A DNA stretch of 64,000 bases, taken from Escherichia coli phage NG_S8. The notes beneath the pieces were generated by a model, which was not told the origin of the DNA, searched no databases, and was given only the letters and a program-made list of their open reading frames with translations. How positions within the stretch are numbered: position 1 is the first letter of the stretch; every line of letters begins with the position of its first letter. Positions 18,222 through 30,963 of this stretch are shown here, piece by piece. Position numbers and translations under genes: made by a program. The stretch lies in the sequence record LC788711.1; one strand, given 5' to 3'.

Positions 18222-18590
18222 TTATATCGCCTGAGTAAATGTACGACTAATAACGTCGTTCTGTTGTTCACGCGTCAATGCGTTAAATCGAACAGCATAG
18301 CCAGAGACACGGATGGTCAACTGAGGATATTTTTCAGGATGTTTCTGTGCATCCAAAAGCTGATCACGGCTTAACACATTGACATTTAGGTGCTGACCAC
18401 CCTCGACTTGAGGAACCACTTCCACATCTACAATGCGAAAGGCCTCAGGGTCAAAGTGAGGTGTGATACCTTCTAGATCTTCGACTAGAACTTTCTGTTT
18501 AAGTTCACCATCTTTAGAATATAGTTGAATGATCTGATTGTTATGAACAATGTTAATTACGCCAGACTTAAGACTTTGATATGCTTTCAT
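18222..18590 (-). CDS. hypothetical protein (122 aa)
   Basis: ORF track. Confidence 0.5.
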
Positions 18591-18962
18591 TAGATCTCCC
18601 TGATGTTAGAATTTGGCTCAGCTTTTTGTTAACCCAGAAGCAAGATAAAAACTGGAAGGCAGGCTTGCTTATTATCTAATCACTAGCTGCTGTTGGGGTG
18701 CTAGCATTCCGGTGAGATTGATGGTCTCGATTAGATAAATAAGCACTGGAACTTTGATTTTAACGTTGCGATCTTCCAGGTCTGTTGCAACTACGTGATT
18801 GCTCACGCTAAGACAATGGCTATCTAAAGTCCTAGCTTCTACATTTATACTCCTGGATAGCATGGAGTTGCAGTCTACTTCCTGCTGTCACGCCCGACCA
18901 TTTATAGAATGTGGACTCTCTTCTCAGCAGGATCTGGTACAATGACCTGATCCTCTGTTTAG

Positions 18963-19035
18963 TAGTTAGTAGTGGATTTGAACCACTGTAGTCACTCCGT
19001 ATGAAGGAGGTGCATAACCGCTCTGCCAACTAACT
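18963..19035 (-). tRNA. tRNA with CAT anticodon (Met/fMet or Ile-lysidine)
   Basis: T-arm agtgg-atttgaa-ccact; acceptor agttagt/actaact; loop TTCATAC. Confidence 0.65.
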
Positions 19036-19041
19036 ATAATT

Positions 19042-19117
19042 TGGTACTCCGACTTGGGATCGAACCAAGATTTGACGATTATCGGTCGCCTGTTCTAACC
19101 GTTTGAACTATCGGAGC
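19042..19117 (-). tRNA. tRNA-Ile (GAT)
   Basis: CCA encoded; T-arm cttgg-gatcgaa-ccaag; loop CCGATAA. Confidence 0.65.
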
Positions 19118-19118
19118 A

Positions 19119-19412
19119 TTACATCATTTCGTCTAAGTAAGAGGTATACTGGTATTTAGCTTCTCCAGTTTTATCTACTTCGACTTCTGTTCTAGGTACT
19201 TTTCGTACCAGACCATGAATCATCTTATAGTTAATAGACTTAGATGGTTCGTGATCTTTTGGAAATACTTGTTTAACCGTTACTACTTTGAAGCCTTCAC
19301 GAGGTGTTAGCACAACAACTTGATCACCTTCTTTTATTTTCCAAGACTCAGGAAATTCGTAAGTGTAGCGTTGACCACCCGTTTGGAACACGACAGAAAG
19401 ATAACGTTTCAT
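19119..19412 (-). CDS. hypothetical protein (97 aa)
   Basis: ORF track; promoter upstream. Confidence 0.5.
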   Translation of the reverse strand: MKRYLSVVFQTGGQRYTYEFPESWKIKEGDQVVVLTPREGFKVVTVKQVFPKDHEPSKSINYKMIHGLVRKVPRTEVEVDKTGEAKYQYTSYLDEMM

Positions 19413-19442
19413 TTGGTTTCCCTCTCATTAATTTATATAAAT

Positions 19443-19471
19443 ATTATAACAAGAAATAAGAGAGAAGGCAA
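19443..19471 (-). promoter_or_regulatory. T5-type early promoter
   Basis: attata 19443-19448, aggcaa 19466-19471. Confidence 0.55.
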
Positions 19472-19486
19472 ATGAATTTTTAAATT

Positions 19487-19561
19487 TGGTGCTCCCACCA
19501 GGAATCGAACCCGGTTCAGATGCTTACAAGGCAACTGCATCGCCAGCAATGCTTTAGGAGC
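19487..19561 (-). tRNA. tRNA-Thr (TGT), tentative
   Basis: CCA encoded; T-arm and acceptor pair; loop CTTGTAA; one anticodon-stem mismatch. Confidence 0.55.
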
Positions 19562-19728
19562 AATAAACCCGTTATTTCAACGGAATTTCTTTTTCAAATA
19601 CAGGAGACTTATCAGACATTACTGTCATAGCCAACTGTTGTAAGAATTCGAAGGAGAGTTTTAAACGTTCTTCACCCAACTCAACCTCAACGCACTACAT
19701 TTGTTTATCTACCTTTAGCTTTAGATTA

Positions 19729-19950
19729 TCAGCCATCTTCGGGTTCTCTTTGCTCAGCTATTGCTAGCCAGTCTGGTAAAAGAAACTTAGTACGAAATTC
19801 CTCATATGTTTCTTCTGGATGAAAACTATAGCCTTGCTTTTCATCATTTAATAAAACCGAACCATCTTCTTGCTCATAAGCTCGATATGTTTCACCAATA
19901 ATTAAAACTCGTCTATTAGGGTTTTTATTACGAAACTCAAAAACGTGCAT
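19729..19950 (-). CDS. hypothetical protein (73 aa)
   Basis: ORF track. Confidence 0.4.
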   Translation of the reverse strand: MHVFEFRNKNPNRRVLIIGETYRAYEQEDGSVLLNDEKQGYSFHPEETYEEFRTKFLLPDWLAIAEQREPEDG

Positions 19951-19966
19951 AACGTTTCCTTATATT

Positions 19967-20041
19967 TGGTGCGGGATACGAGAGTCGAACTCGTGTCTAC
20001 TGGTTGGAAGCCAGTTATTCTAGCCACTGAACTAATCACGC
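19967..20041 (-). tRNA. tRNA-Gly (TCC)
   Basis: CCA encoded; T-arm acgag-agtcgaa-ctcgt; loop CTTCCAA. Confidence 0.65.
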
Positions 20042-20047
20042 ATAAAT

Positions 20048-20123
20048 TGGCTGGAGAAGGAGGAATCGAACCTACCATTAACGGAGTCAAAGGCCGTTGT
20101 GCTAACCGTTACACTACTCTCCA
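20048..20123 (-). tRNA. tRNA-Gln (TTG)
   Basis: CCA encoded; loop CTTTGAC. Confidence 0.65.
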
Positions 20124-20129
20124 AGTATT

Positions 20130-20205
20130 TGGCTGGGATGCCACGGATTGAACGTGGAACCTTCGGAGTCAGAGGCCGACGATCTGCCAATTGATCTACA
20201 TCCCA
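20130..20205 (-). tRNA. tRNA-Gln (CTG)
   Basis: CCA encoded; perfect acceptor tgggatg/catccca; loop CTCTGAC. Confidence 0.7.
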
Positions 20206-20212
20206 ATAATTT

Positions 20213-20413
20213 TTATTCTACAGGAACCGTGGCAATTGGATCTGGTTCTTCTAGACGTTTACCATTATGATCAACACGAATAATACCACAACCTTCACAG
20301 ATTACAACAGCACCATAGCCTTCTTTAACTTCGGCTTCTGTAATCAGACCAGAAAGATCACCAGTATCTTTGCCCCACATATCGATAGAGCATTCTTTGC
20401 AGAAATCAGCCAT
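20213..20413 (-). CDS. small Cys-containing protein (66 aa)
   Basis: CKEC...CEGC motif. Confidence 0.4.
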   Translation of the reverse strand: MADFCKECSIDMWGKDTGDLSGLITEAEVKEGYGAVVICEGCGIIRVDHNGKRLEEPDPIATVPVE

Positions 20414-20437
20414 ATTTTAGTTCCTATATAAGTTAAT

Positions 20438-20512
20438 TGGTGCATCCTCAGGGAATCGAACCCCGATCGTAAAGTTCGTAGCTTTACATTCTTTCCATTG
20501 AAATAAGGACGC
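20438..20512 (-). tRNA. tRNA-Arg (ACG)
   Basis: anticodon arm GTAAAG-CTACGAA-CTTTAC. Confidence 0.65.
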
Positions 20513-20518
20513 AATATT

Positions 20519-20595
20519 TGGGGTGGCTAGTGGAATTCGAATCCACATAGGCCTGATTCACAATCAGGATCATTAACCAATTATGATATAGCCAC
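20519..20595 (-). tRNA. tRNA-His (GTG)
   Basis: perfect acceptor gtggcta/tagccac; loop TTGTGAA. Confidence 0.7.
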
Positions 20596-20807
20596 AATTG
20601 AAAACTCGCAGGGTTAGCGAAACCATCCTCAAATAGCATTTTCTAGAATACTAATCAAGTTATCTTCTATTGCACGAAGCTCAAGACGAGTACGAATTTT
20701 CAATTGTGGCGGCTCTCCGAAACTCATCACACTAACAACTAGTTGATTACACCTGGATTCTCGCCCAGGAAATTCTCTAGAAAGGTGCACCGTTACTCTT
20801 TGAGCCA

Positions 20808-20890
20808 TTGAATATCAAGAAGCAGAAGGACTTGAACCTTCACGAGATAGACCATTTATCTCAGCCTCGTTTTCGGGTATCTTATGAGGA
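20808..20890 (-). ncRNA. tRNA-like element (T-arm only, no acceptor partner found)
   Basis: hairpin gaagg-acttgaa-ccttc at 20815-20831; boundaries approximate. Confidence 0.3.
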
Positions 20891-20961
20891 GTGGATGTTC
20901 CCCTTACGCCCTTTAGGAAGCCCCGTCTACCGATTCCGGCATACTTCAAGAATACTAGTTG

Positions 20962-21297
20962 CTAAACATCTTTAGGTTTCCAAAGTCTAGCAAATTTTAA
21001 AACATTTGGCATATCAACAGAACTCATAGGCATAACTACTAAACAGCTAGGTTCTGCATTACAGATAGTGCGCTCAAAACCTACGTAACACTCTAGGGTA
21101 GATATGATCTTTTTAAATTCTTTTTTATTAACCCTAAGAATTACTTTCTTAAAAGAATTATCAAGCCAATCCCCATACCTAGGGTCATCCTGAAACTTAA
21201 TATGAGCGTTTAAAACAGAGTGAGCAACTAGAGTTGGTACCATATAATCGGGTGCTTCATCTAGTACTGCAATATACATTTTAATATAACTACTCAT
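20962..21297 (-). CDS. hypothetical protein (111 aa)
   Basis: ORF track. Confidence 0.45.
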   Translation of the reverse strand: MSSYIKMYIAVLDEAPDYMVPTLVAHSVLNAHIKFQDDPRYGDWLDNSFKKVILRVNKKEFKKIISTLECYVGFERTICNAEPSCLVVMPMSSVDMPNVLKFARLWKPKDV

Positions 21298-21313
21298 ATT
21301 TTTCCTTATTAGT

Positions 21314-21403
21314 TGGAGGAAGGTAATGGAGTCGAACCATCACCATATCGCTACAGCGGGCAGGTTTTCAAGACCTGTTACATACCACTATGTCCTACCT
21401 TCC
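21314..21403 (-). tRNA. tRNA-Ser (TGA), type II
   Basis: long variable arm; anticodon arm CAGGT-CTTGAAA-ACCTG; acceptor ggaaggt/accttcc. Confidence 0.65.
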
Positions 21404-21410
21404 AGTTGTT

Positions 21411-21502
21411 TGGCGGAAGAAGAGAGATTCGAACTCTCAAGCCTGCTTTAACAAGTCAGCCACTTTCCAAGCGGTTTTCGTCACCTATCGATTTGCTCTT
21501 CC
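21411..21502 (-). ncRNA. type II tRNA-like element, cloverleaf not resolved
   Basis: CCA, T-arm gagag-attcgaa-ctctc and acceptor pair present; no D-stem or anticodon stem could be placed. Confidence 0.4.
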
Positions 21503-21666
21503 GTAGATCTCAGGATTAAATCATAAACTTCATTAGCGGATACTGGAAGTATGAGATTATACATCTTTTGGTCATACCTCTGACCATACTCTATAAACAC
21601 ATACTCTTTAGTTAATGTATTAACAGCTAACCAGATATCAGTTATAGGAGTTTTCATCATGAGTTA

Positions 21667-21747
21667 ATCCAATGTTTGGTAGGGATGGAGGGACTCGAAC
21701 CCACACCCGAAGACTAGAACCTAAATCTAGCGCGTCTGCCAATTTCG
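21667..21747 (-). tRNA. tRNA-Leu (TAG)
   Basis: D-arm GCG-loop-CGC; anticodon arm CTAGA-TTTAGGT-TCTAG. Confidence 0.6.
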
Positions 21748-21764
21748 CCACATCCCCATTTTAT

Positions 21765-21983
21765 TTAGTTAGAAATAAATAATAATCCCGCAACAATGGA
21801 ACCTACGCCACTGAATACCATTATCAGCATAGCTTCTAAGCTGATAAAGCGGACAGTATATGGAGCGCCCCAAGAATAATCAGTAAAGAAAGTTTTCTTT
21901 TCTTTAGCTAAATCTTTAACAGTTCTAAAATAGATAGCTAGTGCTAAAGCTGCAAGAACTACAGAGGCTGCTAAGAATACCAT
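21765..21983 (-). CDS. small membrane protein (72 aa)
   Basis: two hydrophobic helices. Confidence 0.4.
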   Translation of the reverse strand: MVFLAASVVLAALALAIYFRTVKDLAKEKKTFFTDYSWGAPYTVRFISLEAMLIMVFSGVGSIVAGLLFISN

Positions 21984-22002
21984 ATTATTTCCTTAATTTG
22001 TT

Positions 22003-22078
22003 TGGTGGAGTCACTCAGAATTGAACTGAGTTCCACTGCTTGCAAGGCAGTAAGTTTAACCAAATAACCTATGACCCC
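22003..22078 (-). tRNA. tRNA-Ala (TGC)
   Basis: G3-U70 pair; anticodon arm ACTGC-CTTGCAA-GCAGT. Confidence 0.7.
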
Positions 22079-22083
22079 GAATT

Positions 22084-22162
22084 TGGTGGAGAATAAGAGA
22101 TTCGAACTCTTCTGATATCCTCGGTGCAAGCGAGGTGTCCACTCCAAGCAGACCCATTCCCC
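22084..22162 (-). tRNA. divergent tRNA-Ala-like (TGC)
   Basis: G3-U70 pair; anticodon arm CCTCG-CTTGCAC-CGAGG; G at position 8 and 7-nt variable loop. Confidence 0.5.
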
Positions 22163-22171
22163 AAAATTTAT

Positions 22172-22435
22172 TTATTCTCTATACATATCGAGAACAGTTG
22201 CTACAATCTGAGCTTCTAGCCTAGCAATATCTTTATTCACTATATCAGATTCTACTACTAAGTGATTATATATTGCTTCAGTTTTAGCAAGATCTACGTC
22301 AGATAGCTTATTAAGACTATTATAATACTTAGCATTATTGCAACGTTTCTTCATATCGGAAACTCGTTTATGAAGTGTTCTTTGTTGATAACGTTGCGAC
22401 ATTAGTTTCTTAGCCATATCTTTCAGATCAAACAT
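22172..22435 (-). CDS. hypothetical coiled-coil protein (87 aa)
   Basis: ORF track. Confidence 0.4.
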   Translation of the reverse strand: MFDLKDMAKKLMSQRYQQRTLHKRVSDMKKRCNNAKYYNSLNKLSDVDLAKTEAIYNHLVVESDIVNKDIARLEAQIVATVLDMYRE

Positions 22436-22700
22436 AGATATTCCTTCTAGTTTACTAAGGCTATTAGCTCGGTGTGCGTATTACCCTCAGACATTAGCCA
22501 GTAGAGGATAACCGCTCTTCACAAACCCGATACACTATTCAGTTGCCGCTGAATCTAGTGGACTAATCTAGAACTTCTTGCAAAGTATCCCCCGCCATTA
22601 GGGGTCTAATTGCAGTTGTGCTTTTTGGCAGCCAGTCCTAGGTCGAGCTAATACCTTAGTGAACTTTGATGAGGATTTCTCCTCATCAATTTATATAAAT

Positions 22701-22729
22701 ATTATAACAAGAAATTAAGCATCAAGCAA
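22701..22729 (-). promoter_or_regulatory. T5-type early promoter with hairpin-sequestered RBS-like leader
   Basis: attata 22701-22706, aagcaa 22724-22729; leader forms 8-bp hairpin gatgagga/tcctcatc. Confidence 0.55.
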
Positions 22730-23081
22730 GTACATTTTTAGCGATTTCTTGTAGTTCCTTAACGTCGCTAACGAAAAGGTAATCAGAGCTTCCAGAGTGC
22801 ATACTCTGCATAACCACACCATCCTCTGGTGCATCTTCCTTCAAAGTAAGTCCTAACCAGAACTCGGCAAAACTAGGTGTTACCTCACCTTGACTTGCCT
22901 TGAACACATCGCCTTCTGTGATCTCTTGACCAGTGGAGAGTCCCATGTACGGTACGTTCAGATCAATATCTTTGTAGAACTCAGCTAGATCTTGCTCGAA
23001 ATCCCAACCTTTAGAGATAGCGAACTCCACTGTTACATGACCGAAATAGCCTTGAACCTTGCTTGATAATTGCATTTGCAA
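22722..23081 (-). CDS. hypothetical acidic protein (119 aa)
   Basis: ORF track. Confidence 0.5.
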   Translation of the reverse strand: MQMQLSSKVQGYFGHVTVEFAISKGWDFEQDLAEFYKDIDLNVPYMGLSTGQEITEGDVFKASQGEVTPSFAEFWLGLTLKEDAPEDGVVMQSMHSGSSDYLFVSDVKELQEIAKNVLA

Positions 23082-23100
23082 TTCCTTATTTTGAGTTAAT

Positions 23101-23174
23101 TGGTACTCGGTGATAGAATCGAACTATCGCAACCGTCGTGTAAAGACGGGGTTCTCCCATTAAACTAACCGAGC
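23101..23174 (-). tRNA. tRNA-Val (TAC)
   Basis: CCA encoded; anticodon arm CCGTC-TTTACAC-GACGG. Confidence 0.65.
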
Positions 23175-23308
23175 AAAAGACGTCCTATAATATAGGCTTC
23201 AACTACAAATTCACAGAAACCTGCTAAAAACATACCTATTGTAAAATCGGCAGAGAATACATAGGAATCTTTTATTTTCTGCTTCATTAAGTAAAACCAG
23301 ATAGTCAT
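23165..23308 (-). CDS. small hydrophobic peptide (47 aa), below track threshold
   Basis: ATG overlaps upstream stop; GGAGAG RBS; 3-prime end overlaps tRNA-Val. Confidence 0.35.
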   Translation of the reverse strand: MTIWFYLMKQKIKDSYVFSADFTIGMFLAGFCEFVVEAYIIGRLLLG

Positions 23309-23625
23309 TAAAATCTCTCCATTCTAAAGCCAATGAAGTAAGGTGCATTACATGGAACATGCTTAAGATCTTTAAGAGTAATTTTACGTCCTAAGCGTCG
23401 TTCCATACAAGTGAAACATAGAACAATATCTTTGGGCTGCTCTTTTCTTATCTGATCCCAGACCCAATCTTCAACCATACACATTTCATGGTATTGTTCA
23501 CAGTCTCGACAATAATGACACTGATGTTCTGGTACTTTTTGATTTTTAATACACAGTTCAGTAAAGCGTTTTCCGGCTCTGCCAGACATTTCTGATATTG
23601 TTTCTAGAACTTTGTTAATATTCAT
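23308..23625 (-). CDS. Cys-rich zinc-finger-like protein (105 aa)
   Basis: CHYCRDC...C motifs. Confidence 0.5.
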   Translation of the reverse strand: MNINKVLETISEMSGRAGKRFTELCIKNQKVPEHQCHYCRDCEQYHEMCMVEDWVWDQIRKEQPKDIVLCFTCMERRLGRKITLKDLKHVPCNAPYFIGFRMERF

Positions 23626-23642
23626 AACAAATTCCTTTAAAT

Positions 23643-23721
23643 TGGTAGACCGCCTGGGACTCGAACCCAGAACCTTCCGGTTAAAAGCCGGGTGCTGCTA
23701 AACCAATTGAGCTAGCGATCT
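23643..23721 (-). tRNA. tRNA-Lys (TTT), divergent D-arm
   Basis: CCA encoded; anticodon loop CTTTTAA; D-stem poorly paired. Confidence 0.6.
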
Positions 23722-23723
23722 AT

Positions 23724-23888
23724 TTAGTACATATATACTTCTTTAATAGAGTAGACTTTTAAGTAAGGATGATTAATACCAAATTCCGCCATCACTTCGT
23801 TTTCATCTTTACCGTAATGAGCTAGTGGATACTTCTTACGATCTTTGCTAGAACGCAGATCACTTACTTTTAAACGAAATAATTTCAT
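23724..23888 (-). CDS. small basic protein (54 aa), below track threshold
   Basis: ATG with AAGGA RBS 7 nt upstream. Confidence 0.4.
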   Translation of the reverse strand: MKLFRLKVSDLRSSKDRKKYPLAHYGKDENEVMAEFGINHPYLKVYSIKEVYMY

Positions 23889-23909
23889 TTCGAAATCCTT
23901 CTATTAAAT

Positions 23910-23987
23910 TGGAAGCGGGTGTAGGAATCGAACCTACCTCTTTCTAGCTTATGAGACTAGCGATCTCTACCAGAGATCTAACCCGCA
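23910..23987 (-). tRNA. tRNA with CAT anticodon (Met type; U1-U72 unpaired)
   Basis: anticodon arm CTAGT-CTCATAA-GCTAG; position 1-72 mismatch. Confidence 0.6.
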
Positions 23988-23993
23988 ATTGTT

Positions 23994-24071
23994 TGGTCTC
24001 CGTGGGAGGATTTGAACCCCCGACCCTACCGCCCCAAACGGAACGCTCTGGCCAAACTGAGCTACACGGAG
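23994..24071 (-). tRNA. tRNA-Pro (TGG)
   Basis: perfect acceptor ctccgtg/cacggag; loop TTTGGGG. Confidence 0.65.
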
Positions 24072-24103
24072 AATATTCTTTGTTAACTCACTTTATAAGA
24101 TAT

Positions 24104-24132
24104 ATTATACAGAGAATTAAGTGAAATAGCAA
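24104..24132 (-). promoter_or_regulatory. T5-type early promoter driving a tRNA operon
   Basis: attata 24104-24109, tagcaa 24127-24132; no ORF follows, tRNA-Pro starts about 30 nt downstream. Confidence 0.55.
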
Positions 24133-24382
24133 ATGAGTTTTTAATAAATTTACTTATTGTGTAGGCCACCTCACGCTTCAAACGCTCTGCTGACAAAGAA
24201 GTTTGCGAGACTTCTCTTAAATGCCAGAATAGATCCGCCGATCTATCGGAACCTACTCAATAAGTAAACTTTCGTTTACCTACACCTACCTGGTCGGGAG
24301 GATTTTCAGCGACTAGAACCGGCCGGAAACTCATCGCCTTGTTTATCTAGGATCCGTTCTCTAGGAAGCAGAAACCTAAATT

Positions 24383-24456
24383 TGGTGCGGTCGGAGGGAA
24401 TCGAACCCTCAACTTCTGGTTGGCAACCAAAAATTATACCTTTTAACTACGAACGC
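24383..24456 (-). tRNA. tRNA-Gly (GCC)
   Basis: CCA encoded; anticodon arm TTTGG-TTGCCAA-CCAGA. Confidence 0.6.
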
Positions 24457-24465
24457 ATAATAAGT

Positions 24466-24587
24466 CAATCTAGGCAGGACTTGAACCTGCTATCACTTGT
24501 GCGGATTTACGAGAACCATTCTTTCACTCGAATCGAACGAGCTTCTACCCTCGGCAAGCTGGTGTCCCCTCTCCACCACGCTAGAAT
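24466..24587 (-). ncRNA. atypical 122-nt tRNA-like element with two T-arm hairpins
   Basis: T-arms at 24474-24490 and 24526-24542; outer acceptor aatctag/ctagaat pairs 6 of 7. Confidence 0.4.
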
Positions 24588-24654
24588 GTTTGATAAAGAG
24601 TCCGGTGTAGCAATCCGTAAGGGTGCACCTACTGTAGCCTTTACTCTTTAAATT

Positions 24655-24730
24655 TGGTACACCCACTAGGACTTGAACCTAGAACCCTCCGCTTAAGAGG
24701 CGGTAGCTCTAACCATTGAGCTATGGATGT
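24655..24730 (-). tRNA. tRNA-Lys (CTT)
   Basis: D-arm GCTC/GAGC; anticodon loop CTCTTAA. Confidence 0.65.
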
Positions 24731-24736
24731 ATTATT

Positions 24737-24813
24737 TGGCGCGACCGATGGGATTCGAACCCACATTCTCTCCCGTGACAGGGAAGTACCATTACCAAGC
24801 CAGCCCCGATCGC
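24737..24813 (-). tRNA. tRNA-Asp (GTC)
   Basis: anticodon arm CTTCC-CTGTCAC-GGGAG. Confidence 0.6.
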
Positions 24814-24822
24814 ATAATTTGT

Positions 24823-25008
24823 TTACTCAGCTTTGAGTTTTTCGATAGCTTCCTCAACCTCTTTTAGAGCTTCACGACGTGCATTCTGTTGCTGCATATC
24901 TTGAATTAATGTCAGTTTTTGGTTTTCAATTTCTTGATCCCAAACCTTAATATTATTAATCAGACTATCACGATCAGCTTCTAGTCGAGCAATTGCACGA
25001 GTTGTCAT
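24823..25008 (-). CDS. small coiled-coil protein (61 aa)
   Basis: ORF track. Confidence 0.4.
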   Translation of the reverse strand: MTTRAIARLEADRDSLINNIKVWDQEIENQKLTLIQDMQQQNARREALKEVEEAIEKLKAE

Positions 25009-25111
25009 ATCTATTTCCTCAGTTGTTAATGAAAAATGGTATCTGTGACTGAATTCAATATCAGTAATGATAGCTGGTTGGCTACCGGTTTACTTAACTC
25101 TACACAGAATA

Positions 25112-25194
25112 TGGCGGGCCGTGTAGGATTCGAACCTACGTTGTCTTTCGACATGGATTAACAGTCCACCGCCAAACCGCTTGGCTAACGACCC
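25112..25194 (-). tRNA. type II tRNA with GTT (Asn) anticodon and G73
   Basis: Ser-like D-arm GCC-AAGCGGTTT-GGC, variable hairpin GTCGAAAGAC, anticodon arm GTGGA-CTGTTAA-TCCAT. Confidence 0.55.
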
Positions 25195-25201
25195 TAAAAT
25201 T

Positions 25202-25277
25202 TGGACGACCGCATGAGATTCGAACTCACATAAGGAGGTTTTGCAGGCCTCCGCCTAAGCCATTCAGCCAACGGTCG
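25202..25277 (-). tRNA. tRNA-Cys (GCA)
   Basis: anticodon loop CTGCAAA. Confidence 0.6.
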
Positions 25278-25455
25278 ATTTATCTTGCTTTTCGAGATTA
25301 GTAAACTCTAGATCTTTAGAATGTCCTATAGATCTAGCATAATAGCCATCTCCAGCATCATAGCCTGACTTACCACACTCACACATCTTAAACTCTCTAT
25401 AACGAGTGAAAATATGTTCAGAACCACAACACTTAAATTTAACTAACATTTTCAT
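25264..25455 (-). CDS. small zinc-ribbon-like protein (63 aa)
   Basis: CCGSEH...CECGKSG motif. Confidence 0.4.
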   Translation of the reverse strand: MKMLVKFKCCGSEHIFTRYREFKMCECGKSGYDAGDGYYARSIGHSKDLEFTNLEKQDKSTVG

Positions 25456-25694
25456 TTAACACGCTCCGGTAAATCTTCGAGTTTATATTGAGTAGCCACA
25501 TTAGCAGCATCTAGTAACAAACCCATATGTTTAAGAATTCTAGTGATAGCCTCGCCTTCTGCTTCTTCTACAAAGCAACGTAGTTGCATGAAGTCAATAC
25601 CACCATCCATACCAGAGAAAATGTTAAGTAAGCGAAGCATTACCAGCTTACGTTCTTTCAATTCTTGTTCTGTCATGTTGCTTCTCCAGTTCAA
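25452..25694 (-). CDS. hypothetical protein (80 aa)
   Basis: ORF track. Confidence 0.45.
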   Translation of the reverse strand: MNWRSNMTEQELKERKLVMLRLLNIFSGMDGGIDFMQLRCFVEEAEGEAITRILKHMGLLLDAANVATQYKLEDLPERVK

Positions 25695-25705
25695 TTTATG
25701 TAATA

Positions 25706-25734
25706 ATTATACAGAACTTTAAGCGGTTAAGCAA
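25706..25734 (-). promoter_or_regulatory. T5-type early promoter
   Basis: attata 25706-25711, aagcaa 25729-25734. Confidence 0.6.
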
Positions 25735-25999
25735 CTACATTTTTCAGAAATATGATGCCTTTCTTTTTCTTCTTATACTTCCACGTTAACGGATTCTGTC
25801 GATTATGAACGCTTGAGATCTTTGTCTCGTCAAAGTTCTTCAATACCATGTAATCACAAGCCAACTGCTCTAGTGGAATGGTTTCTCCGTCAAAAGCATA
25901 AACATAAGGCTGTTGACTGGCACGATAATGATAGACTTTGTTAATTCTGCGTTTTAATGACTTATCCGCACAATAAATAAAGAAGTTTTCAGGATGCAT
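25727..25999 (-). CDS. hypothetical protein (about 90 aa; ATG 25999 preferred)
   Basis: AAGGAG RBS 6 nt upstream of ATG at 25997-25999; track ORF uses TTG at 26014. Confidence 0.45.
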   Translation of the reverse strand: MHPENFFIYCADKSLKRRINKVYHYRASQQPYVYAFDGETIPLEQLACDYMVLKNFDETKISSVHNRQNPLTWKYKKKKKGIIFLKNVVA

Positions 26000-26016
26000 C
26001 AGCATCTCCTTCAAAT

Positions 26017-26091
26017 TGGTGCACCCCGTTGGTAACGATCCAACCTCTCAAGCTCTTCAGGCAAGCGCTAATCCATCTCAGCTAAAGGTGC
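26017..26091 (-). tRNA. divergent tRNA, possibly Phe (GAA)
   Basis: CCA, acceptor and D-arm pair; T-loop ATCGTTA atypical; loop CTGAAGA with weak stem. Confidence 0.4.
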
Positions 26092-26097
26092 AAATAT

Positions 26098-26176
26098 TGG
26101 CAAACCTACTAGGACTCGAACCTAGACCGTACGGTTTTGGAGACCGACATGCTGTCCAGTAACACTCTAGGAATGC
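26098..26176 (-). tRNA. tRNA-Trp (CCA) candidate with weak acceptor stem
   Basis: CCA encoded; T-arm ctagg-actcgaa-cctag; anticodon arm TCGGT-CTCCAAA-ACCGT. Confidence 0.45.
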
Positions 26177-26182
26177 AGAAAT

Positions 26183-26259
26183 TGGCGTCCTGTGCGGGGA
26201 TCGAACCCGCAAATCCTACCTTGAAAGGGTAGTGACTTTACCAGTTTGTCTAACAGGAC
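26183..26259 (-). tRNA. tRNA-Glu (TTC)
   Basis: perfect acceptor gtcctgt/acaggac; anticodon arm CTACC-CTTTCAA-GGTAG. Confidence 0.7.
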
Positions 26260-26266
26260 TTAAATT

Positions 26267-26357
26267 TGGTGTTGGATGATGGAGTCGAACCACCCGAGAC
26301 CCTTCCGAGTCGGCAGATTTACAGTCTGCTTCGCTACCTCTACGATACTAATCCAAC
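26267..26357 (-). tRNA. tRNA-Tyr (GTA), type II
   Basis: anticodon arm GCAGA-CTGTAAA-TCTGC; long variable arm; perfect acceptor. Confidence 0.7.
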
Positions 26358-26482
26358 ATATTTGAATGAAAAGTAAGTCGGTTAAACTCAAGGTGGAATA
26401 TTTCAGGATTTCCTGACTTTACCCCTAAAAGCAACTCGCTTAGTTACTTCTCATTCAGATATGTTTTCCAAATTAGATAACT

Positions 26483-26511
26483 ATTATATCAAGTTTTGAA
26501 GGACTGAGCAA
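26483..26511 (-). promoter_or_regulatory. T5-type early promoter driving a tRNA operon
   Basis: attata 26483-26488, gagcaa 26506-26511. Confidence 0.55.
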
Positions 26512-26547
26512 GTCAAATTTTAAAGAACTTGCTCAGTGCTATATCAG

Positions 26548-26823
26548 TTACTCGAAGCTAGGAGTGACACTCAGTTTGAATGGAAGCTCGAACACTTCTT
26601 CATAATCATCATTGAGCGTAATTACACGACCTTCTAGCTTAGTCATGGTGATTTCGATATCAGCCTTTGCATCAGGAGCCATACCAGCTTCCACACATTT
26701 AGCTTTGACTTCCGGCAGAAGTTCTACATCGTAGAAATAAAGCCATTCAATCTCACCTTCCCAGCCACCCCAGGATTTACAAACAGCACTTTCAACACCA
26801 GTTGCAGTAACACGTTTTGACAT
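26548..26823 (-). CDS. hypothetical protein (91 aa)
   Basis: ORF track. Confidence 0.45.
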   Translation of the reverse strand: MSKRVTATGVESAVCKSWGGWEGEIEWLYFYDVELLPEVKAKCVEAGMAPDAKADIEITMTKLEGRVITLNDDYEEVFELPFKLSVTPSFE

Positions 26824-26853
26824 TCGTTAACTCCTTCATCAATTTATATAACT

Positions 26854-26884
26854 ATTATAGCAGAAATCTTAAGTAAAAAGCAAG
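26854..26884 (-). promoter_or_regulatory. T5-type early promoter (18-bp spacer)
   Basis: attata 26854-26859, aagcaa 26879-26884. Confidence 0.55.
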
Positions 26885-26913
26885 TACATTTTTAAAATTT
26901 CTGCTTGGAGGAG

Positions 26914-27120
26914 TTAAACTCCTGATTCTTCAGCCAGATCAAGCCCAACCAACGTGATTGCCATAATAGCCGCGCCATGTTCTTTCTCTCCTAGCTCTTT
27001 GGCTTGAGTGAGAATATTGAGGAATTGCTTTTGAAAATCTGCAACTTCTTCTGTCAAGCCTGCTTCAGCAATAATTCCTTTCAGCATAAAGCGTTGTGCC
27101 GTAATTTCAGGATTAGCCAT
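26914..27120 (-). CDS. hypothetical protein (68 aa)
   Basis: ORF track. Confidence 0.4.
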   Translation of the reverse strand: MANPEITAQRFMLKGIIAEAGLTEEVADFQKQFLNILTQAKELGEKEHGAAIMAITLVGLDLAEESGV

Positions 27121-27133
27121 TTATTATCTCCAG

Positions 27134-27256
27134 TTATTTAGAGTGTAAACCAAACTTAGGATCATAGCGATCGTAAGTCGTACCATTAGTTGAAGCCTTG
27201 ATGCTATGAAAACGACAGTACATAAATTTACGCAGTGCTTTCTTAATAGCTTTCAT
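27134..27256 (-). CDS. small basic protein (40 aa), below track threshold
   Basis: ATG with AAGGA RBS 7 nt upstream. Confidence 0.3.
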   Translation of the reverse strand: MKAIKKALRKFMYCRFHSIKASTNGTTYDRYDPKFGLHSK

Positions 27257-27271
27257 TTTATTTCCTTAATT

Positions 27272-27349
27272 TGGTAGGGGTGGTGGGATTCGAACCCACA
27301 AAACCTGAATTTTAAGTCCAGTACCTATGCCAATTCGATTACACCCCCA
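27272..27349 (-). tRNA. tRNA, anticodon read as TAA (Leu), class I-like
   Basis: CCA encoded; T-arm gtggg-attcgaa-cccac; loop CTTAAAA; D-arm unclear. Confidence 0.45.
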
Positions 27350-27356
27350 TGTAATC

Positions 27357-27710
27357 TTAGCGAATCTCTAAACCCTGGAAATATCGAGGGAATGGAGAGC
27401 CAACTTCAAAATTGATGCCCCAATTAAGTTCAACGAGTTCAGATTTATTAAGATCTAGGCCATTACCTTCAAAGATATAGCCGTAAACCGCAGGGAACAT
27501 AGCTGCTAGATCTTCCATATCGGAATGAGCATTGTGTTCTTCACGGAACTGCTCAAACTCTTCAAAGAACTTTTCTAGGAAGAACTCAGGTACGATAAAA
27601 GTTACCACATCAGTAGAATCATCGGTACGATACACCGTAGCTTGGAACAAGCCAACACCTAAAAGGTTTATTGCCGGAGTAGTAAAAATATCCATCTTAG
27701 CCTCTCTCAA
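27357..27710 (-). CDS. hypothetical acidic protein (117 aa)
   Basis: ORF track. Confidence 0.45.
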   Translation of the reverse strand: MREAKMDIFTTPAINLLGVGLFQATVYRTDDSTDVVTFIVPEFFLEKFFEEFEQFREEHNAHSDMEDLAAMFPAVYGYIFEGNGLDLNKSELVELNWGINFEVGSPFPRYFQGLEIR

Positions 27711-27882
27711 TGTCTAGACAAATTGCATATTCAGGGTTGATACCAGTACCTTTACATGTAGGACATTCCCATTCTCTACAGAAAATATCCCCAGGCTCTG
27801 CATCATCCTGCCTACCACCACCATGACAGTCCTTACACCGACATTCTTCTAATGCTTTCTTCATTTCATAGAATCTGGACAT
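27697..27882 (-). CDS. small zinc-finger-like protein (61 aa)
   Basis: CRCKDCHGGG...CPTCKG motifs. Confidence 0.4.
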   Translation of the reverse strand: MSRFYEMKKALEECRCKDCHGGGRQDDAEPGDIFCREWECPTCKGTGINPEYAICLDIERG

Positions 27883-27898
27883 ATAGTCTCCTAGTTAA

Positions 27899-27976
27899 TT
27901 GGTGGCTCCCGGAGGATTCGAACCTACCTACCTTTCGCTTATGAGGCGACGGCTCATACCAAATGAGCTTGAGAAC
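27899..27976 (-). tRNA. tRNA with CAT anticodon (Met/Ile2 type)
   Basis: D-arm GCTC/GAGC; anticodon loop CTCATAA. Confidence 0.6.
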
Positions 27977-27981
27977 CAAAT

Positions 27982-28075
27982 TTGGAGGAAGATGCCAGAC
28001 TCGAACTGGCACACCATGTCTCCACAGCTACTGGCTGTTTAGCAAACAGCTCCCTTACCTTTAGGGTTAATCTTC
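27982..28075 (-). tRNA. tRNA-Ser (GCT), type II
   Basis: perfect acceptor ggaagat/atcttcc; anticodon arm GCTGT-TTGCTAA-ACAGC. Confidence 0.7.
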
Positions 28076-28089
28076 CAAATTTATGAATA

Positions 28090-28118
28090 TATTATACAGA
28101 AAATTTCGGCATTAAGCA
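28090..28118 (-). promoter_or_regulatory. T5-type early promoter driving a tRNA operon
   Basis: attata 28090-28095, aagcaa 28113-28118. Confidence 0.6.
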
Positions 28119-28127
28119 AGTGAAATT

Positions 28128-28424
28128 TTACTGAACATTGCACTGATATACCTGTTTGATACGTGTCACTGACTTCTTAGTTGGGTTGATAGAAGAACCC
28201 TGCCACCAACGTGACTCTGAGCTAAGAACAGCACCAGGAACAGCCTGCTCTTTTGGCAGAACAATATCAAAACACTGTTCACCCATATTATCTTTAATGT
28301 GTGACCAAATATCCAAAGTAAATCGTTCTAACTTATTACAAACCTGAACTTGACAAAGTTCCTGTTGCGGAGCAGCAAATACAGAAGTAGATACTAGAGT
28401 CAATGCAAATACAATGCGTTTCAT
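28128..28424 (-). CDS. secreted hypothetical protein (98 aa; start at signal-peptide Met)
   Basis: GAGAGAGGAA RBS; N-terminus MKRIVFALTLVSTSVFA. Confidence 0.45.
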   Translation of the reverse strand: MKRIVFALTLVSTSVFAAPQQELCQVQVCNKLERFTLDIWSHIKDNMGEQCFDIVLPKEQAVPGAVLSSESRWWQGSSINPTKKSVTRIKQVYQCNVQ

Positions 28425-28454
28425 GTTTGATTCCTCTCTCGAATTTATAAATAT

Positions 28455-28483
28455 ATTATACAGAGAATTTAGCATTCAAGCAA
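28455..28483 (-). promoter_or_regulatory. T5-type early promoter
   Basis: attata 28455-28460, aagcaa 28478-28483. Confidence 0.6.
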
Positions 28484-28626
28484 TTGAATTTTTAAACTTT
28501 TTAGTGGAAAATCGCAGGGCACTTAAGGGTAGCACGTTGTTGCTGCAATAATAGTATATGATTCTAAAGAATTAAATACTAAAGACCTTAGTTGAATAAC
28601 TTATGGGCTTTTCTTTTGCCTTAAAT

Positions 28627-28662
28627 ACAGAAAAGCCCGCGCTCTCGGGGGAAACGCGGGCT
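28627..28662 (-). terminator. intrinsic terminator
   Basis: 8-bp GC stem agcccgcg/cgcgggct with U-tract on minus strand. Confidence 0.6.
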
Positions 28663-28686
28663 TGTTTCGAAGATTACGTGTAACTA

Positions 28687-28854
28687 TTACTTATTACGCA
28701 TATCCATGATCATTTGACCATCGTAGCCAGTACCGACAACAGTCTGTGGTACACCACCTTGGTATTTTTCAGCACGAAGCATTTCAACTTCCAGCTGCTT
28801 CCAACGAATTACTTTTTGATCGGAAGTCAGTTCTTTAGTGTTTTTAGTAAACAT
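28687..28854 (-). CDS. small hypothetical protein (55 aa), below track threshold
   Basis: ATG with AAGGAA RBS. Confidence 0.35.
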   Translation of the reverse strand: MFTKNTKELTSDQKVIRWKQLEVEMLRAEKYQGGVPQTVVGTGYDGQMIMDMRNK

Positions 28855-28865
28855 ATATTTCCTTA

Positions 28866-29066
28866 TTATTTAGAAGAGTTAGCTACTACAGTTACTTTAG
28901 TTGCAGAAATAAACAGGCTAGCATCCACAGCAAATTCAGGAGCTTTGATATCTCCGTTATGAAATATGACTATACCGGAGACTACTTCAAATGCTAGTGC
29001 TGTAACATCGGTGGTATTTACTTGTGAATGTTCACCTACTACTTTTACTATATATCGTGTTTTCAC
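28866..29066 (-). CDS. hypothetical protein (66 aa)
   Basis: ORF track. Confidence 0.4.
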   Translation of the reverse strand: MKTRYIVKVVGEHSQVNTTDVTALAFEVVSGIVIFHNGDIKAPEFAVDASLFISATKVTVVANSSK

Positions 29067-29092
29067 TTTATTTTCCTAGCAGTTAATAAAAT

Positions 29093-29167
29093 TGGCCGAG
29101 GTGACAGGATTCGAACCTGCATAAAGGAATTTAGAAGACTCCTGCCTATCCCTTAGACTACACCCCG
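29093..29167 (-). tRNA. tRNA-Arg (TCT)
   Basis: CCA encoded; anticodon arm GGAGT-CTTCTAA-ATTCC; acceptor pairs with one G-U. Confidence 0.7.
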
Positions 29168-30281: not shown

Positions 30282-30310
30282 ATTATACAGAATTTTGAAG
30301 CGTTTAGCAA
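30282..30310 (-). promoter_or_regulatory. T5-type early promoter driving the ORF-free region
   Basis: attata 30282-30287, tagcaa 30305-30310. Confidence 0.6.
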
Positions 30311-30318
30311 ATCAATTT

Positions 30319-30932: not shown

Positions 30933-30963
30933 ATTTCGCTTCCTCTCATTAATTTATGAAAGT

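What the first reader, a model, noticed from the sequence alone, without database searches (positions are those of the whole stretch)
20808..26176. Several non-canonical tRNA-like elements interspersed with normal tRNAs
Alongside about 27 tRNAs that fold conventionally there are elements with good T-arms but aberrant remainder: 20808-20890 (no acceptor partner), 21411-21502 (type II length, no D-stem or anticodon stem placed), 24466-24587 (122 nt with two nested T-arms), 26017-26091 (T-loop ATCGTTA, weak anticodon stem around GAA) and 26098-26176 (good Trp anticodon arm, poor acceptor). They may be pseudo-tRNAs, tRNA-derived regulatory RNAs, or real tRNAs that defeat manual folding.
Basis: seen in the sequence. 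Interest (0 to 1): 0.5.

Follow-up and report, generated by a model that had tools for sequence, protein, structure and literature searches.

The report
Phage T5 tRNA-like stable RNAs
Of the five odd "tRNA-like" elements in this T5-like Salmonella phage, three are genuine if quirky tRNA genes (Ser, Phe, Trp), and two are copies of the long-known but never explained T5 stable RNAs RNA1 and RNA2, which are tRNA-shaped molecules whose anticodon loop is replaced by an extra folded domain.

Summary
The window is a T5-like phage, 99.8% identical to Salmonella phage 3-29. Its tRNA cluster lies on the minus strand.

Three of the five flagged elements are real tRNAs:
- 21411-21502 is tRNA-Ser(GGA), called by ARAGORN.
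- 26017-26091 is tRNA-Phe(GAA), Rfam 33.4 bits.
- 26098-26174 is tRNA-Trp(CCA), called by both tools and identical to the phage 5 tRNA-Trp.

The other two elements are homologues of the T5 GenBank features rna1 and rna2, annotated "tRNA-like stable RNA with unknown functions".
- 20808-20890 is only the 3' part of the 144-nt RNA1 (20807-20950).
- 24466-24587 is RNA2 (24464-24588).

Covariation in 24-27 distinct sequences from three Demerecviridae lineages supports full tRNA frames. The anticodon loop is replaced by a 48-nt domain in RNA1 and a 55-nt domain in RNA2; the RNA2 domain includes a second T-arm-like hairpin. Neither RNA encodes CCA here. Neither matches Rfam or bacterial genomes. T5 deletion mutants lacking one or the other are viable.

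They are known objects, mostly unannotated, and their function is unknown. I judge them to be non-decoding tRNA mimics processed out of the tRNA transcripts.

The parts
20807..20950 (-). RNA1 homologue, 144 nt; the tRNA-like core is 20816-20950. Layout: acceptor helix 20942-20950 with 20816-20824 (6 bp, a conserved tandem U.U, and a closing C-G); D arm 20923-20939; anticodon-position stem 20917-20921 with 20864-20868; 48-nt insert 20869-20916 containing a hairpin at 20886-20903 with loop ACAUCCAC; long variable arm 20844-20862 with loop AAUGGUC; T arm 20825-20841. No CCA is encoded (the 3' end reads ..UUGAUAUUCAAU).
   Evidence: 81% identical to T5 rna1 and 88% to phage 5 rna1, in the same gene order. 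17 of 34 pairs show compensatory change, 96.6% of cells are paired, 0 of 500 shuffles reach the observed values, and slid controls give 1-4 pairs. No Rfam match.
24464..24588 (-). RNA2 homologue, 125 nt. Layout: acceptor 24581-24587 with 24467-24473; D arm 24560-24578 (5 bp, loop GAGAGGGGA); anticodon-position stem 24555-24559 with 24495-24499; 55-nt insert 24500-24554 with an internal T-arm-like hairpin GCUCG UUCGAUU CGAGU at 24526-24542 and the invariant stretch CUCGUAA.UCCGCA; T arm 24474-24490. The 3' end reads ..G ACU, not CCA.
   Evidence: 90% identical to T5 rna2 and 92% to phage 5 rna2. 24 of 35 pairs show compensatory change, 98.3% of cells are paired, 0 of 500 shuffles reach the observed values (alignment fitted to the model). 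On a plain MAFFT alignment, 18 of 26 frame pairs covary. Covariation of the internal hairpin was also seen on my manual alignment. No Rfam match.
21411..21502 (-). tRNA-Ser(GGA), type II, 92 nt, with encoded CCA. It is the homologue of T5 tRNA-Ser2.
   Evidence: ARAGORN. 89% identical to the phage 5 tRNAS2. RNAalifold gives a cloverleaf with 11 covarying pairs. CCA is present. The Rfam tRNA model is below threshold.
26017..26091 (-). tRNA-Phe(GAA), 75 nt, with encoded CCA. The anticodon stem has tandem U.U mismatches. The T arm is GUUGG AUCGUUA CCAAC.
   Evidence: Rfam tRNA 33.4 bits. Annotated tRNA-Phe in the phage 3-29 record. The same variant is present at 99% identity or more in 66 phage records. 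The U.U stem is shared by all Markadamsvirinae copies examined.
26098..26174 (-). tRNA-Trp(CCA), 77 nt, with A1-U72, U2.U71, U3.U70, G73 and encoded CCA.
   Evidence: ARAGORN and Rfam, 36.3 bits. 100% identical to the phage 5 tRNA-Trp, whose GenBank note says the CUA-anticodon version is an amber suppressor. The acceptor mismatches are conserved while pairs 4-7 covary.
25037..25109 (-). RNA3 homologue, 73 nt. It ends in ACCA.
   Evidence: 94.5% identical to T5 rna3, annotated 'putative tRNA-like RNA'. Fold z-score -2.6.
20597..20806 (-). RNAI (20707-20806; 5'/3' stem GGCUC/GAGCC followed by GCCA) and RNAIII (20597-20702). These stable RNAs fill the gap between RNA1 and tRNA-His. Their 5' ends define the 3' ends of the upstream RNAs.
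   Evidence: Mapped from the T5 and phage 5 annotation. End sequences.

Best explanation
SHOWN. The five elements fall into two classes.

Three are functional-type tRNA genes of the T5 family: Ser-GGA, Phe-GAA and Trp-CCA. Their non-canonical features are conserved lineage traits, not decay. These features are tandem U.U mismatches in the Trp acceptor stem and the Phe anticodon stem, an A54/U58 T-loop in Phe, and a 3-bp D-stem with a 4-nt connector in Ser.

Two are the T5-type 'tRNA-like stable RNAs' RNA1 and RNA2. Each keeps a complete tRNA frame: acceptor stem, D arm with GG, canonical T arm, and a stem at the anticodon position. RNA1 has a type II frame closest to tRNA-Leu and tRNA-Ser. RNA2 has a type I frame. 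In both, the 7-nt anticodon loop is replaced by a conserved folded domain. In RNA1 this is 48 nt, with two helices and the loop ACAUCC(A/G)C. In RNA2 it is 55 nt and includes a second T-arm-like hairpin.

INFERRED. Both RNAs are transcribed with the neighbouring tRNAs and ORFs from the early promoters. RNase P and 3' trimming cut them out like tRNAs, because they abut other tRNA-like units. They accumulate as L-shaped tRNA mimics that cannot decode. In this phage they are probably not aminoacylated, because no CCA is encoded.

They are dispensable in laboratory hosts. I think their function is that of a tRNA mimic that engages some tRNA-binding factor through the elbow/acceptor half and the conserved insert. 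This is more likely than mere transcript punctuation, but the partner is unknown.

The confidence given (0.8) is for the identities and the non-decoding tRNA-mimic architecture. The mimic-with-a-partner function on its own would rate about 0.4.
For: Phage identity and gene order.

tRNA calls. Cloverleaf covariation for Ser and Trp. The Trp gene is identical to the suppressor-competent phage 5 gene. Conservation of the mismatches.

RNA1 and RNA2 match features annotated as 'tRNA-like stable RNA with unknown functions' in NC_005859 and AJ604531.

Structure of RNA1. Structure of RNA2.

Homologues occur in Tequintavirus, Epseptimavirus, Sugarlandvirus and Myunavirus (My1). RNA2 is also in Pantoea phage AAS21.

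After the true homologues, the RNA1 model's next-best hits are type II tRNAs (Leu, Ser) at 30-41 bits. The RNA2 model's next-best hits are ordinary tRNAs at 24-31 bits. ARAGORN in intron mode calls RNA1 a tRNA with a 41-nt insert.

All neighbouring tRNAs but one (tRNA-Met, 18962-19035) encode CCA; RNA1 and RNA2 do not.

Loop and insert sequences are invariant across lineages whose stems have changed. This argues for a sequence-specific role.

T5 deletions 29191-32442 and 30661-38625 remove RNA1 and RNA2 respectively, and both mutants are viable (PMC11464382; T5 coordinates).
Against: No expression, end-mapping or binding data were available to me. 'Stable RNA' rests on the GenBank annotation of T5 and phage 5, not on this phage.

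T5 notes say that the CUA-anticodon versions of Ser2 and Phe, and of T5's own different Trp, are not amber suppressors. Full translational activity of Ser(GGA) and Phe is therefore not demonstrated.

RNA2 copies in Sugarland and AAS21 end in NCCA, so aminoacylation of RNA2 cannot be excluded.

The tertiary fold of the insert domains is unresolved. The GGG/UCC helix and the short Px helix next to the internal hairpin rest mainly on invariant bases.

The covariation counts come from about 5-6 independent lineages, and many sequences are close relatives.
Confidence: 0.8

Rival explanations
1. RNA1 and RNA2 are only processing punctuation. On this view they are tRNA-shaped cleavage signals for RNase P and RNase E that separate and stabilise the small ORF mRNAs and tRNAs of the polycistronic early transcripts. 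The released RNAs would have no function of their own.
For: They are embedded in tRNA arrays with spacers of 0-8 nt. RNA1 is directly followed by RNAI, then RNAIII, then tRNA-His. In My1, RNA1 starts 2 nt after a tRNA's CCA and is followed by an ORF with a ribosome-binding site. They are dispensable in the laboratory. T4 has analogous stable RNAs in its tRNA cluster.
Against: An RNase P signal needs only the acceptor and T-arm. Yet the D arm, the insert helices and long single-stranded stretches are conserved or covary across subfamilies. Examples are CUCGUAA.UCCGCA, GAACAUCCACUC and AAAUGGUCU. Ordinary tRNAs already flank these positions and could serve as punctuation.
Confidence: 0.25
2. RNA1 and RNA2 are decoys or sponges for host tRNA-targeting immunity, or for another tRNA-binding enzyme. 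They would present a tRNA body without a cleavable anticodon loop.
For: The T5 tRNA region is an anti-defence island. T5 tRNA-Lys, Thr and Asn neutralise PARIS (PMC11464382, PMC12409363). tRNA-Tyr and ORF75 counter retrons Eco7 and Eco2 (PMC11555353). RNA1 and RNA2 keep the elbow, acceptor and T-arm while lacking an anticodon loop. They are found only in phages.
Against: There is no direct evidence. The T5 fragment set that rescued PARIS sensitivity contained only Pro, fMet, Lys and Val, and 'other fragments had no effect'. Of the nine tRNA-region fragments tested, only those with tRNA-Tyr and ORF75 countered Eco2 and Eco7. Simple loss of the loop would not explain the conserved insert.
Confidence: 0.2
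3. RNA1 and RNA2 are intron-containing tRNA genes. The insert would be spliced out to give a decoding tRNA.
For: ARAGORN in intron mode calls RNA1 a tRNA-Phe(AAA) with a 41-nt intron. With relaxed scoring it calls RNA2 a tRNA-Pro(AGG) with an intron. Some GenBank records label the RNA1 locus tRNA-Phe or tRNA-Leu.
Against: The inserts are 41-55 nt. From general knowledge, the tRNA introns known in bacteria are self-splicing group I introns of about 200 nt or more, and enterobacteria have no tRNA-splicing endonuclease. There is no group I hit in Rfam. The residual 'anticodon' differs between relatives: AAA here and a UAA-like loop in T5. No CCA is encoded, unlike nearly every real tRNA here. The annotated stable RNAs of 144 and 125 nt are the unspliced lengths. 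The insert helices covary, so the insert is selected as part of the mature fold.
Confidence: 0.03
4. All five elements are decaying pseudo-tRNAs without function.
For: Automated scores are low or absent. Several stems contain mismatches. T5 notes report failure of suppressor conversion for Ser2, Phe and the T5 Trp.
Against: Compensatory substitutions maintain every major helix. The mismatches themselves are conserved across genera. The Trp gene is identical to a suppressor-competent one. The elements are present in about 500 phage records.
Confidence: 0.04

Closest known systems
Bacteriophage T5 RNA1 (gene rna1, T5s03, NC_005859 30501-30644; also AJ604531 rna1)
   Same: 81-88% identity over the full 144 nt. 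Same gene order: Ser2, Ser1, ORF, RNA1, RNAI, RNAIII, tRNA-His. Same helices, and the differences between copies are compensatory.
   Different: The upstream ORF differs. Here it is a 111-aa Pth2-fold protein; in T5 it is the 57-aa T5.063. RNAI is more diverged: only the last 22 nt align.
Bacteriophage T5 / phage 5 RNA2 (gene rna2, T5s06, NC_005859 32959-33083; AJ604531 5936-6060)
   Same: 90-92% identity over 125 nt. Same tRNA frame and the same internal T-arm-like hairpin.
   Different: Here it is flanked by tRNA-Lys(CUU), a 55-nt conserved hairpin element and tRNA-Gly(GCC), which T5 lacks. The acceptor has one U.U mismatch.
Phage T4 species 1 and species 2 RNAs (rnaC, 139 nt; rnaD, 119 nt)
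   Same: They are small stable RNAs of unknown function, encoded inside a phage tRNA cluster next to tRNA-Arg. rnaC has a canonical T-arm and 5'/3' pairing.
   Different: There is no sequence similarity beyond 7-10-nt words. The R1 and R2 models do not hit them. They are analogous, not homologous.
tmRNA (tRNA-like domain)
   Same: An acceptor stem plus T arm, with the anticodon region replaced by another domain.
   Different: ARAGORN's tmRNA search and the Rfam tmRNA families find nothing. RNA1 and RNA2 keep a D stem and an anticodon-position stem, and they are only 125-144 nt. From reading the sequence, I saw no G3.U70 alanine identity pair and no tag reading frame.
Bacterial Y-RNA-like YrlA and other tRNA mimics (recalled from my own knowledge, not tested beyond Rfam)
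   Same: Non-decoding RNAs that imitate the tRNA elbow/acceptor half.
   Different: In YrlA the 5'/3' ends form the Ro-binding stem and the tRNA-like module is internal. In RNA1 and RNA2 the ends form the acceptor stem. No Rfam family matched at E up to 10.

Membership tests
Canonical tRNA: element 21411-21502, Ser(GGA) | Cloverleaf recognised by a tRNA finder; 7-nt anticodon loop with U33; encoded or added CCA; helices maintained by covariation | tested here: met
   ARAGORN calls tRNA-Ser(gga). The loop is UUGGAAA. It ends in GCCA. 11 pairs covary. One caveat: the Rfam tRNA model is below its gathering score, and the only hit is tRNA-Sec at 26.5 bits.
Canonical tRNA: element 26017-26091, Phe(GAA) | Rfam RF00005 score at or above 29 bits; 7-nt anticodon loop; CCA | tested here: met
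   33.4 bits. The loop is CUGAAGA. It ends in ACCA. ARAGORN does not call this variant, but it does call its relatives.
Canonical tRNA: element 26098-26174, Trp(CCA) | Recognised by both tools; CCA; evidence of function in translation | tested here: met
   ARAGORN plus Rfam at 36.3 bits. It ends in GCCA. It is 100% identical to the phage 5 tRNA-Trp, which is annotated as convertible to an amber suppressor.
Canonical tRNA: RNA1 (20807-20950) and RNA2 (24464-24588) | 7-nt anticodon loop carrying an anticodon | tested here: not met
   The stem at the anticodon position encloses 48 nt in RNA1 and 55 nt in RNA2. Default ARAGORN makes no call and the Rfam tRNA model gives no hit even at E up to 10.
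Canonical tRNA: RNA1 and RNA2 | 3' CCA end (encoded, as in nearly all other tRNAs of this cluster) | tested here: not met
   RNA1 ends ..CUUCUUGAUAUUCAAU and RNA2 ends ..CUAGAUUGACU. Post-transcriptional CCA addition cannot be tested here. The Sugarland and AAS21 copies of RNA2 do encode NCCA.
T5 RNA1 / RNA2 stable-RNA families | Sequence homology over the full length, and the same position in the tRNA cluster | tested here: met
   RNA1: 81% (T5) and 88% (phage 5). RNA2: 90% and 92%. Gene order is the same. Model scores are 145-163 bits.
T5 RNA1 / RNA2 stable-RNA families | Accumulates as a discrete stable RNA in infected cells | not testable with these tools
   This rests on the depositors' annotation of T5 and phage 5. 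The primary papers are not in the library.
Intron-containing tRNA gene | An insert with features of a known splicing system, and a conserved anticodon after removal | tested here: not met
   No group I hit. The insert is 41-55 nt. The residual loop is not conserved between relatives. The insert helices covary as part of the fold.
tmRNA | Recognised by ARAGORN's tmRNA search or the Rfam tmRNA models; tag reading frame | tested here: not met
   No tmRNA call and no Rfam hit.

The most novel reading that the evidence does not exclude
RNA1 and RNA2 may be dedicated phage tRNA mimics. The tRNA body would dock onto a host or phage tRNA-binding protein: an immune tRNase, a modification or processing enzyme, or a translation factor. 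The conserved domain that replaces the anticodon loop would block or redirect that protein. That would make them an RNA-based counter-defence or regulatory device. The second T-loop in RNA2, and the AUAAAUGGUCU motif shared between RNA1 and RNA2, would be part of the recognition surface.
Probability: 0.2. Interest if true: 0.7.

Novelty: already known. Interest (0 to 1): 0.33.

Why it matters
The practical result is a correction of annotation. Three elements that look defective are real tRNAs. Two RNA genes are missing from almost all of the roughly 500 T5-like phage records that contain them, where they are left blank or covered by spurious 'hypothetical protein' or tRNA-Phe/Leu calls.

There is also a scientific point. 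T5 RNA1 and RNA2, like T4 species 1 and 2 RNAs, have had no assigned function since they were found. The T5 tRNA region is now known to be an anti-defence island. The covariation-backed structures given here show intact tRNA frames with the anticodon loop replaced by a conserved domain. That makes the old question testable with precise deletions and pull-downs.

Tried and rejected
- **Rfam.** Searches at gathering score and at E up to 10 over 18500-30500 gave nothing for RNA1, RNA2, RNA3 or the 55-nt element.
- **Literature.** Searches for the original T5 stable-RNA work found nothing useful in the library. Glukhov 2018 is not held.
- **Viral-contig pattern.** The first RNA2 pattern was mis-specified and returned nothing. 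It was corrected.
- **Metagenome scan.** It added only 11 loci, mostly close relatives.
- **Bacterial genomes.** No copy of RNA2 or of the 55-nt element was found. RNA1 has no blastn match in E. coli genomes.
- **T4 rnaC and rnaD.** No homology to the T5 RNAs.
- **Single-sequence folding.** Energies of RNA1 and RNA2 are not better than shuffles (z -0.5 and -0.3). Thermodynamics alone would not have flagged them; the support comes from covariation.
- **Alternative D-arm for RNA1.** RNAalifold proposed pairing 10-14 with 19-23. I rejected it in favour of 12-14 with 26-28, because the My1 copy has a compensatory C-G to U-A change there.
- **CGAG/CUCG helix in the RNA2 insert.** Rejected because many copies have U opposite an invariant C.
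- **Loop-loop pairing in RNA1.** A possible pairing of CCA in the insert loop with UGG in the variable-arm loop (UCCUA with UGGGA in My1) was noted, but it rests on too little variation to claim.
- **Internal fold of the 55-nt element.** Not resolved.

Full report
**What the window is.** A 5.8-kb query spanning the finding is 99.8% identical to Salmonella phage 3-29 (Epseptimavirus, Demerecviridae) and matches about 600 T5-like phage records. The tRNA cluster lies on the minus strand between about 18960 and 29770. ARAGORN finds 29 tRNAs. Rfam finds 29 at gathering score. These include two that ARAGORN misses, at 26020-26091 and a borderline one at 29692-29763. Rfam in turn misses Ser(GGA) and one Ala.

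**The three real tRNAs.**

*Ser(GGA), 21411-21502.* ARAGORN calls it. It is 89% identical to the phage 5 tRNAS2 and corresponds to T5 tRNA-Ser2. An alignment of six variants gives a type II cloverleaf with 11 covarying pairs. The Rfam tRNA model stays below threshold. The T5 record notes that its CUA-anticodon version is not a suppressor. It is therefore atypical, but it is not a relic.

*Phe(GAA), 26017-26091.* It scores 33.4 bits and is annotated tRNA-Phe in phage 3-29. The weak anticodon stem CUUGC/GCUUG, with two U.U mismatches, is identical in all Markadamsvirinae copies examined. The T-arm variant GUUGG AUCGUUA CCAAC occurs at 99% identity or more in 66 records.

*Trp(CCA), 26098-26174.* Both tools call it. 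It is 100% identical to the phage 5 tRNA-Trp, which its depositors note becomes an amber suppressor when given a CUA anticodon. The 'poor acceptor' (A1-U72, U2.U71, U3.U70, G73) is conserved in Sugarland and My1 relatives, while pairs 4-7 covary.

All three encode CCA.

**The two elements that are not tRNAs.** blastn shows that 20790-20975 matches the T5 features rna1 and rnaI. It also shows that 24457-24654 matches rna2 of phage 5 and T5. The T5 and phage 5 records come from the laboratory that studied this region. They annotate RNA1 (144 nt) and RNA2 (125 nt) as 'tRNA-like stable RNA with unknown functions'. They also annotate RNA3, RNAI, RNAIII, RNAIV, RNA2H and RNAX. Mapping these features onto the window gives:
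- RNA1: 20950 to 20807
- RNAI: 20806 to 20707
- RNAIII: 20702 to 20597
- RNA2: 24588 to 24464
- RNA3: 25109 to 25037

The gene order is the same as in T5.

**Structure of RNA1.** I collected 27 distinct sequences from Tequintavirus, Epseptimavirus, Sugarlandvirus and, through a covariance model, My1. The following fold is supported:
- an acceptor helix of 6 bp, a conserved tandem U.U, and a closing pair that changes from C-G to U.G to A-U between lineages;
- a 3-bp D stem with the loop GGAAUYGGUAGAC. This loop resembles that of bacterial tRNA-Leu; the resemblance is recalled from memory and was not tested;
- a 5-bp stem at the anticodon position;
- a 48-nt insert with a 3-bp helix and a 5-6-bp hairpin whose loop keeps CAUCC;
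- a 6-bp variable arm and a canonical T arm.

Seventeen of 34 pairs show compensatory changes and 96.6% of cells are paired. No shuffle out of 500 reaches the observed values, and slid controls give 1-4 pairs. A plain MAFFT alignment gives the same picture. After the true homologues (84-170 bits), the model's best hits are type II tRNAs, Leu and Ser, at 30-41 bits.

**Structure of RNA2.** I used 24 distinct sequences, including Sugarland, My1, phiR2-01, Pantoea phage AAS21 and metagenome contigs. The acceptor (8 of 8 pairs), D arm (4 of 5), anticodon-position stem (4 of 5), T arm (2 of 5) and the internal T-arm-like hairpin (4 of 5) all covary. In total 24 of 35 pairs show compensatory changes and 98.3% of cells are paired. 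That alignment is fitted to the model. On plain MAFFT, 18 of 26 frame pairs covary, and my manual alignment shows the internal hairpin change GCUCG/CGAGU to UACGG/CCGUA.

The stretch CUCGUAA.UCCGCA and the D-loop GAUGGGGAA are invariant. The Sugarland and AAS21 copies end in NCCA; the copy here ends in GACU.

**How they probably work.**

*What is shown.* Both RNAs are selected as tRNA-shaped folds that lack an anticodon loop. They sit in tRNA arrays with tRNA-like spacing. They are absent from Rfam. RNA2 has no copy in bacterial genomes, and RNA1 has no blastn match in E. coli genomes. They are individually dispensable: T5_123 (deletion 29191-32442) lacks RNA1, T5Mos (deletion 30661-38625) lacks RNA2, and both are viable (with T5 coordinates).

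*What is inferred.* They are processed by RNase P and 3' trimming, and they act as non-decoding tRNA mimics. Conservation of loop and insert sequences argues for more than punctuation.

*The decoy idea.* A decoy role against tRNA-targeting immunity is attractive, because this region counters PARIS and retrons through real tRNAs. However, the published fragment-rescue experiments gave no sign that other fragments matter for PARIS, Eco2 or Eco7. I rate it at about 0.2.

*The other rivals.* The intron reading is very unlikely. The inserts are too short for known bacterial tRNA introns, there is no group I signal, the residual anticodon is not conserved, there is no CCA, and the insert covaries as structure. 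The relic reading is contradicted by the covariation.

**Comparison with known systems and novelty.** These are members of the T5 RNA1 and RNA2 families, so the objects are already known. T4 rnaC and rnaD are analogues without homology. tmRNA and Y-RNA-like mimics share only the general idea.

This analysis adds three things:
- covariation-tested secondary structures;
- the phylogenetic spread across Demerecviridae, with RNA1 and RNA2 in Sugarland and My1 and RNA2 also in AAS21;
- the observation that nearly all modern records leave these genes unannotated or mislabel them.

Interest is modest. The finding is explained, but it points at an old unanswered question that has become testable.

**Seen in passing.** A 55-nt hairpin element next to RNA2 is shared with the tRNA arrays of Ackermannviridae and Schitoviridae. 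A Pth2-fold protein is encoded just upstream of RNA1. Details are in the list below.

Noticed in passing
window 24595-24649 (- strand), between tRNA-Lys(CUU) and RNA2: A 55-nt element: AAAGAGU-AAAGGCUACAGUAGGUGCACCCUUACGGAUUGCUACACCGG-ACUCUUU. It is found in 357 phage records: about 100 T5-like phages, about 250 Ackermannviridae, and some Schitoviridae. It always lies inside tRNA arrays and is never annotated. The closing stem covaries in five variants. The 40-nt core is nearly invariant and contains the palindrome GGUGCACC. There is no Rfam hit and no copy in bacterial genomes. It may be an undescribed small RNA or a DNA-level site that travels with tRNA modules.
   Followed up: partly
window 20962-21297 (- strand): A 111-aa ORF immediately upstream of RNA1 has a peptidyl-tRNA hydrolase Pth2 fold. 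The AlphaFold model has pLDDT 94.8. The top 14 PDB matches are all Pth2 or Bit1, with TM 0.6-0.78 and probability 1.0. Sequence methods barely see the relationship (Pfam PTH2 E=0.19). It has 390 homologues, mostly on phage-sized contigs. It is mislabelled 'putative endolysin' in some records. Catalytic residues were not checked.
   Followed up: yes
It has an acceptor-like stem with U1.U72, no D stem, a 6-nt loop at the anticodon position, an odd T-loop and an encoded ACCA end.
   Followed up: partly
window 20597-20806 (- strand): RNAI and RNAIII homologues fill the space between RNA1 and tRNA-His. RNAI has a 5'/3' stem GGCUC/GAGCC followed by GCCA, like an acceptor end. RNA1 and RNAIII both end in UCAAU directly before the next RNA's 5' G.
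   Followed up: partly
window 29692-29763 (- strand), inside the RNAX homologue (about 29168-29950): A borderline Rfam tRNA hit (29.3 bits) without CCA. It lies inside the region homologous to the 785-nt 'RNAX' stable RNA of phage 5, upstream of tRNA-Arg(UCU). The surrounding roughly 500 nt are non-coding and GC-rich, and have no Rfam match.
   Followed up: no
window 26017-26091, and hits H165-H175: This tRNA-Phe is 91-98% identical over positions 6-64, a stretch that contains the whole anticodon arm, to tRNA-Phe genes of unrelated phages: Serratia X20, Acinetobacter YMC13/03/R2096, Cronobacter Pet-CM3-4 and Erwinia Cronus. Listeria phages match at about 85%. This suggests a phage-borne tRNA-Phe lineage exchanged across families. 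I did not read those sequences to confirm the U.U stem.
   Followed up: no
RNA1 20844-20862, and Sugarland RNA2 (L025:11385-11507): The 11-nt motif AUAAAUGGUCU is shared by the variable-arm loop of RNA1 and the internal loop of the Sugarland RNA2. T5-type RNA2 has GAAUGGUUCU there. In My1 both RNAs have a GGG-containing sequence instead. This could be a common recognition motif or a sign of common descent.
   Followed up: no
window 18962-19035 (- strand): The last tRNA of the cluster, Met/CAU (Rfam 50.9 bits), is the only called tRNA that does not encode CCA. After the acceptor stem it reads ..ACUAACU-A-CUA.
   Followed up: no
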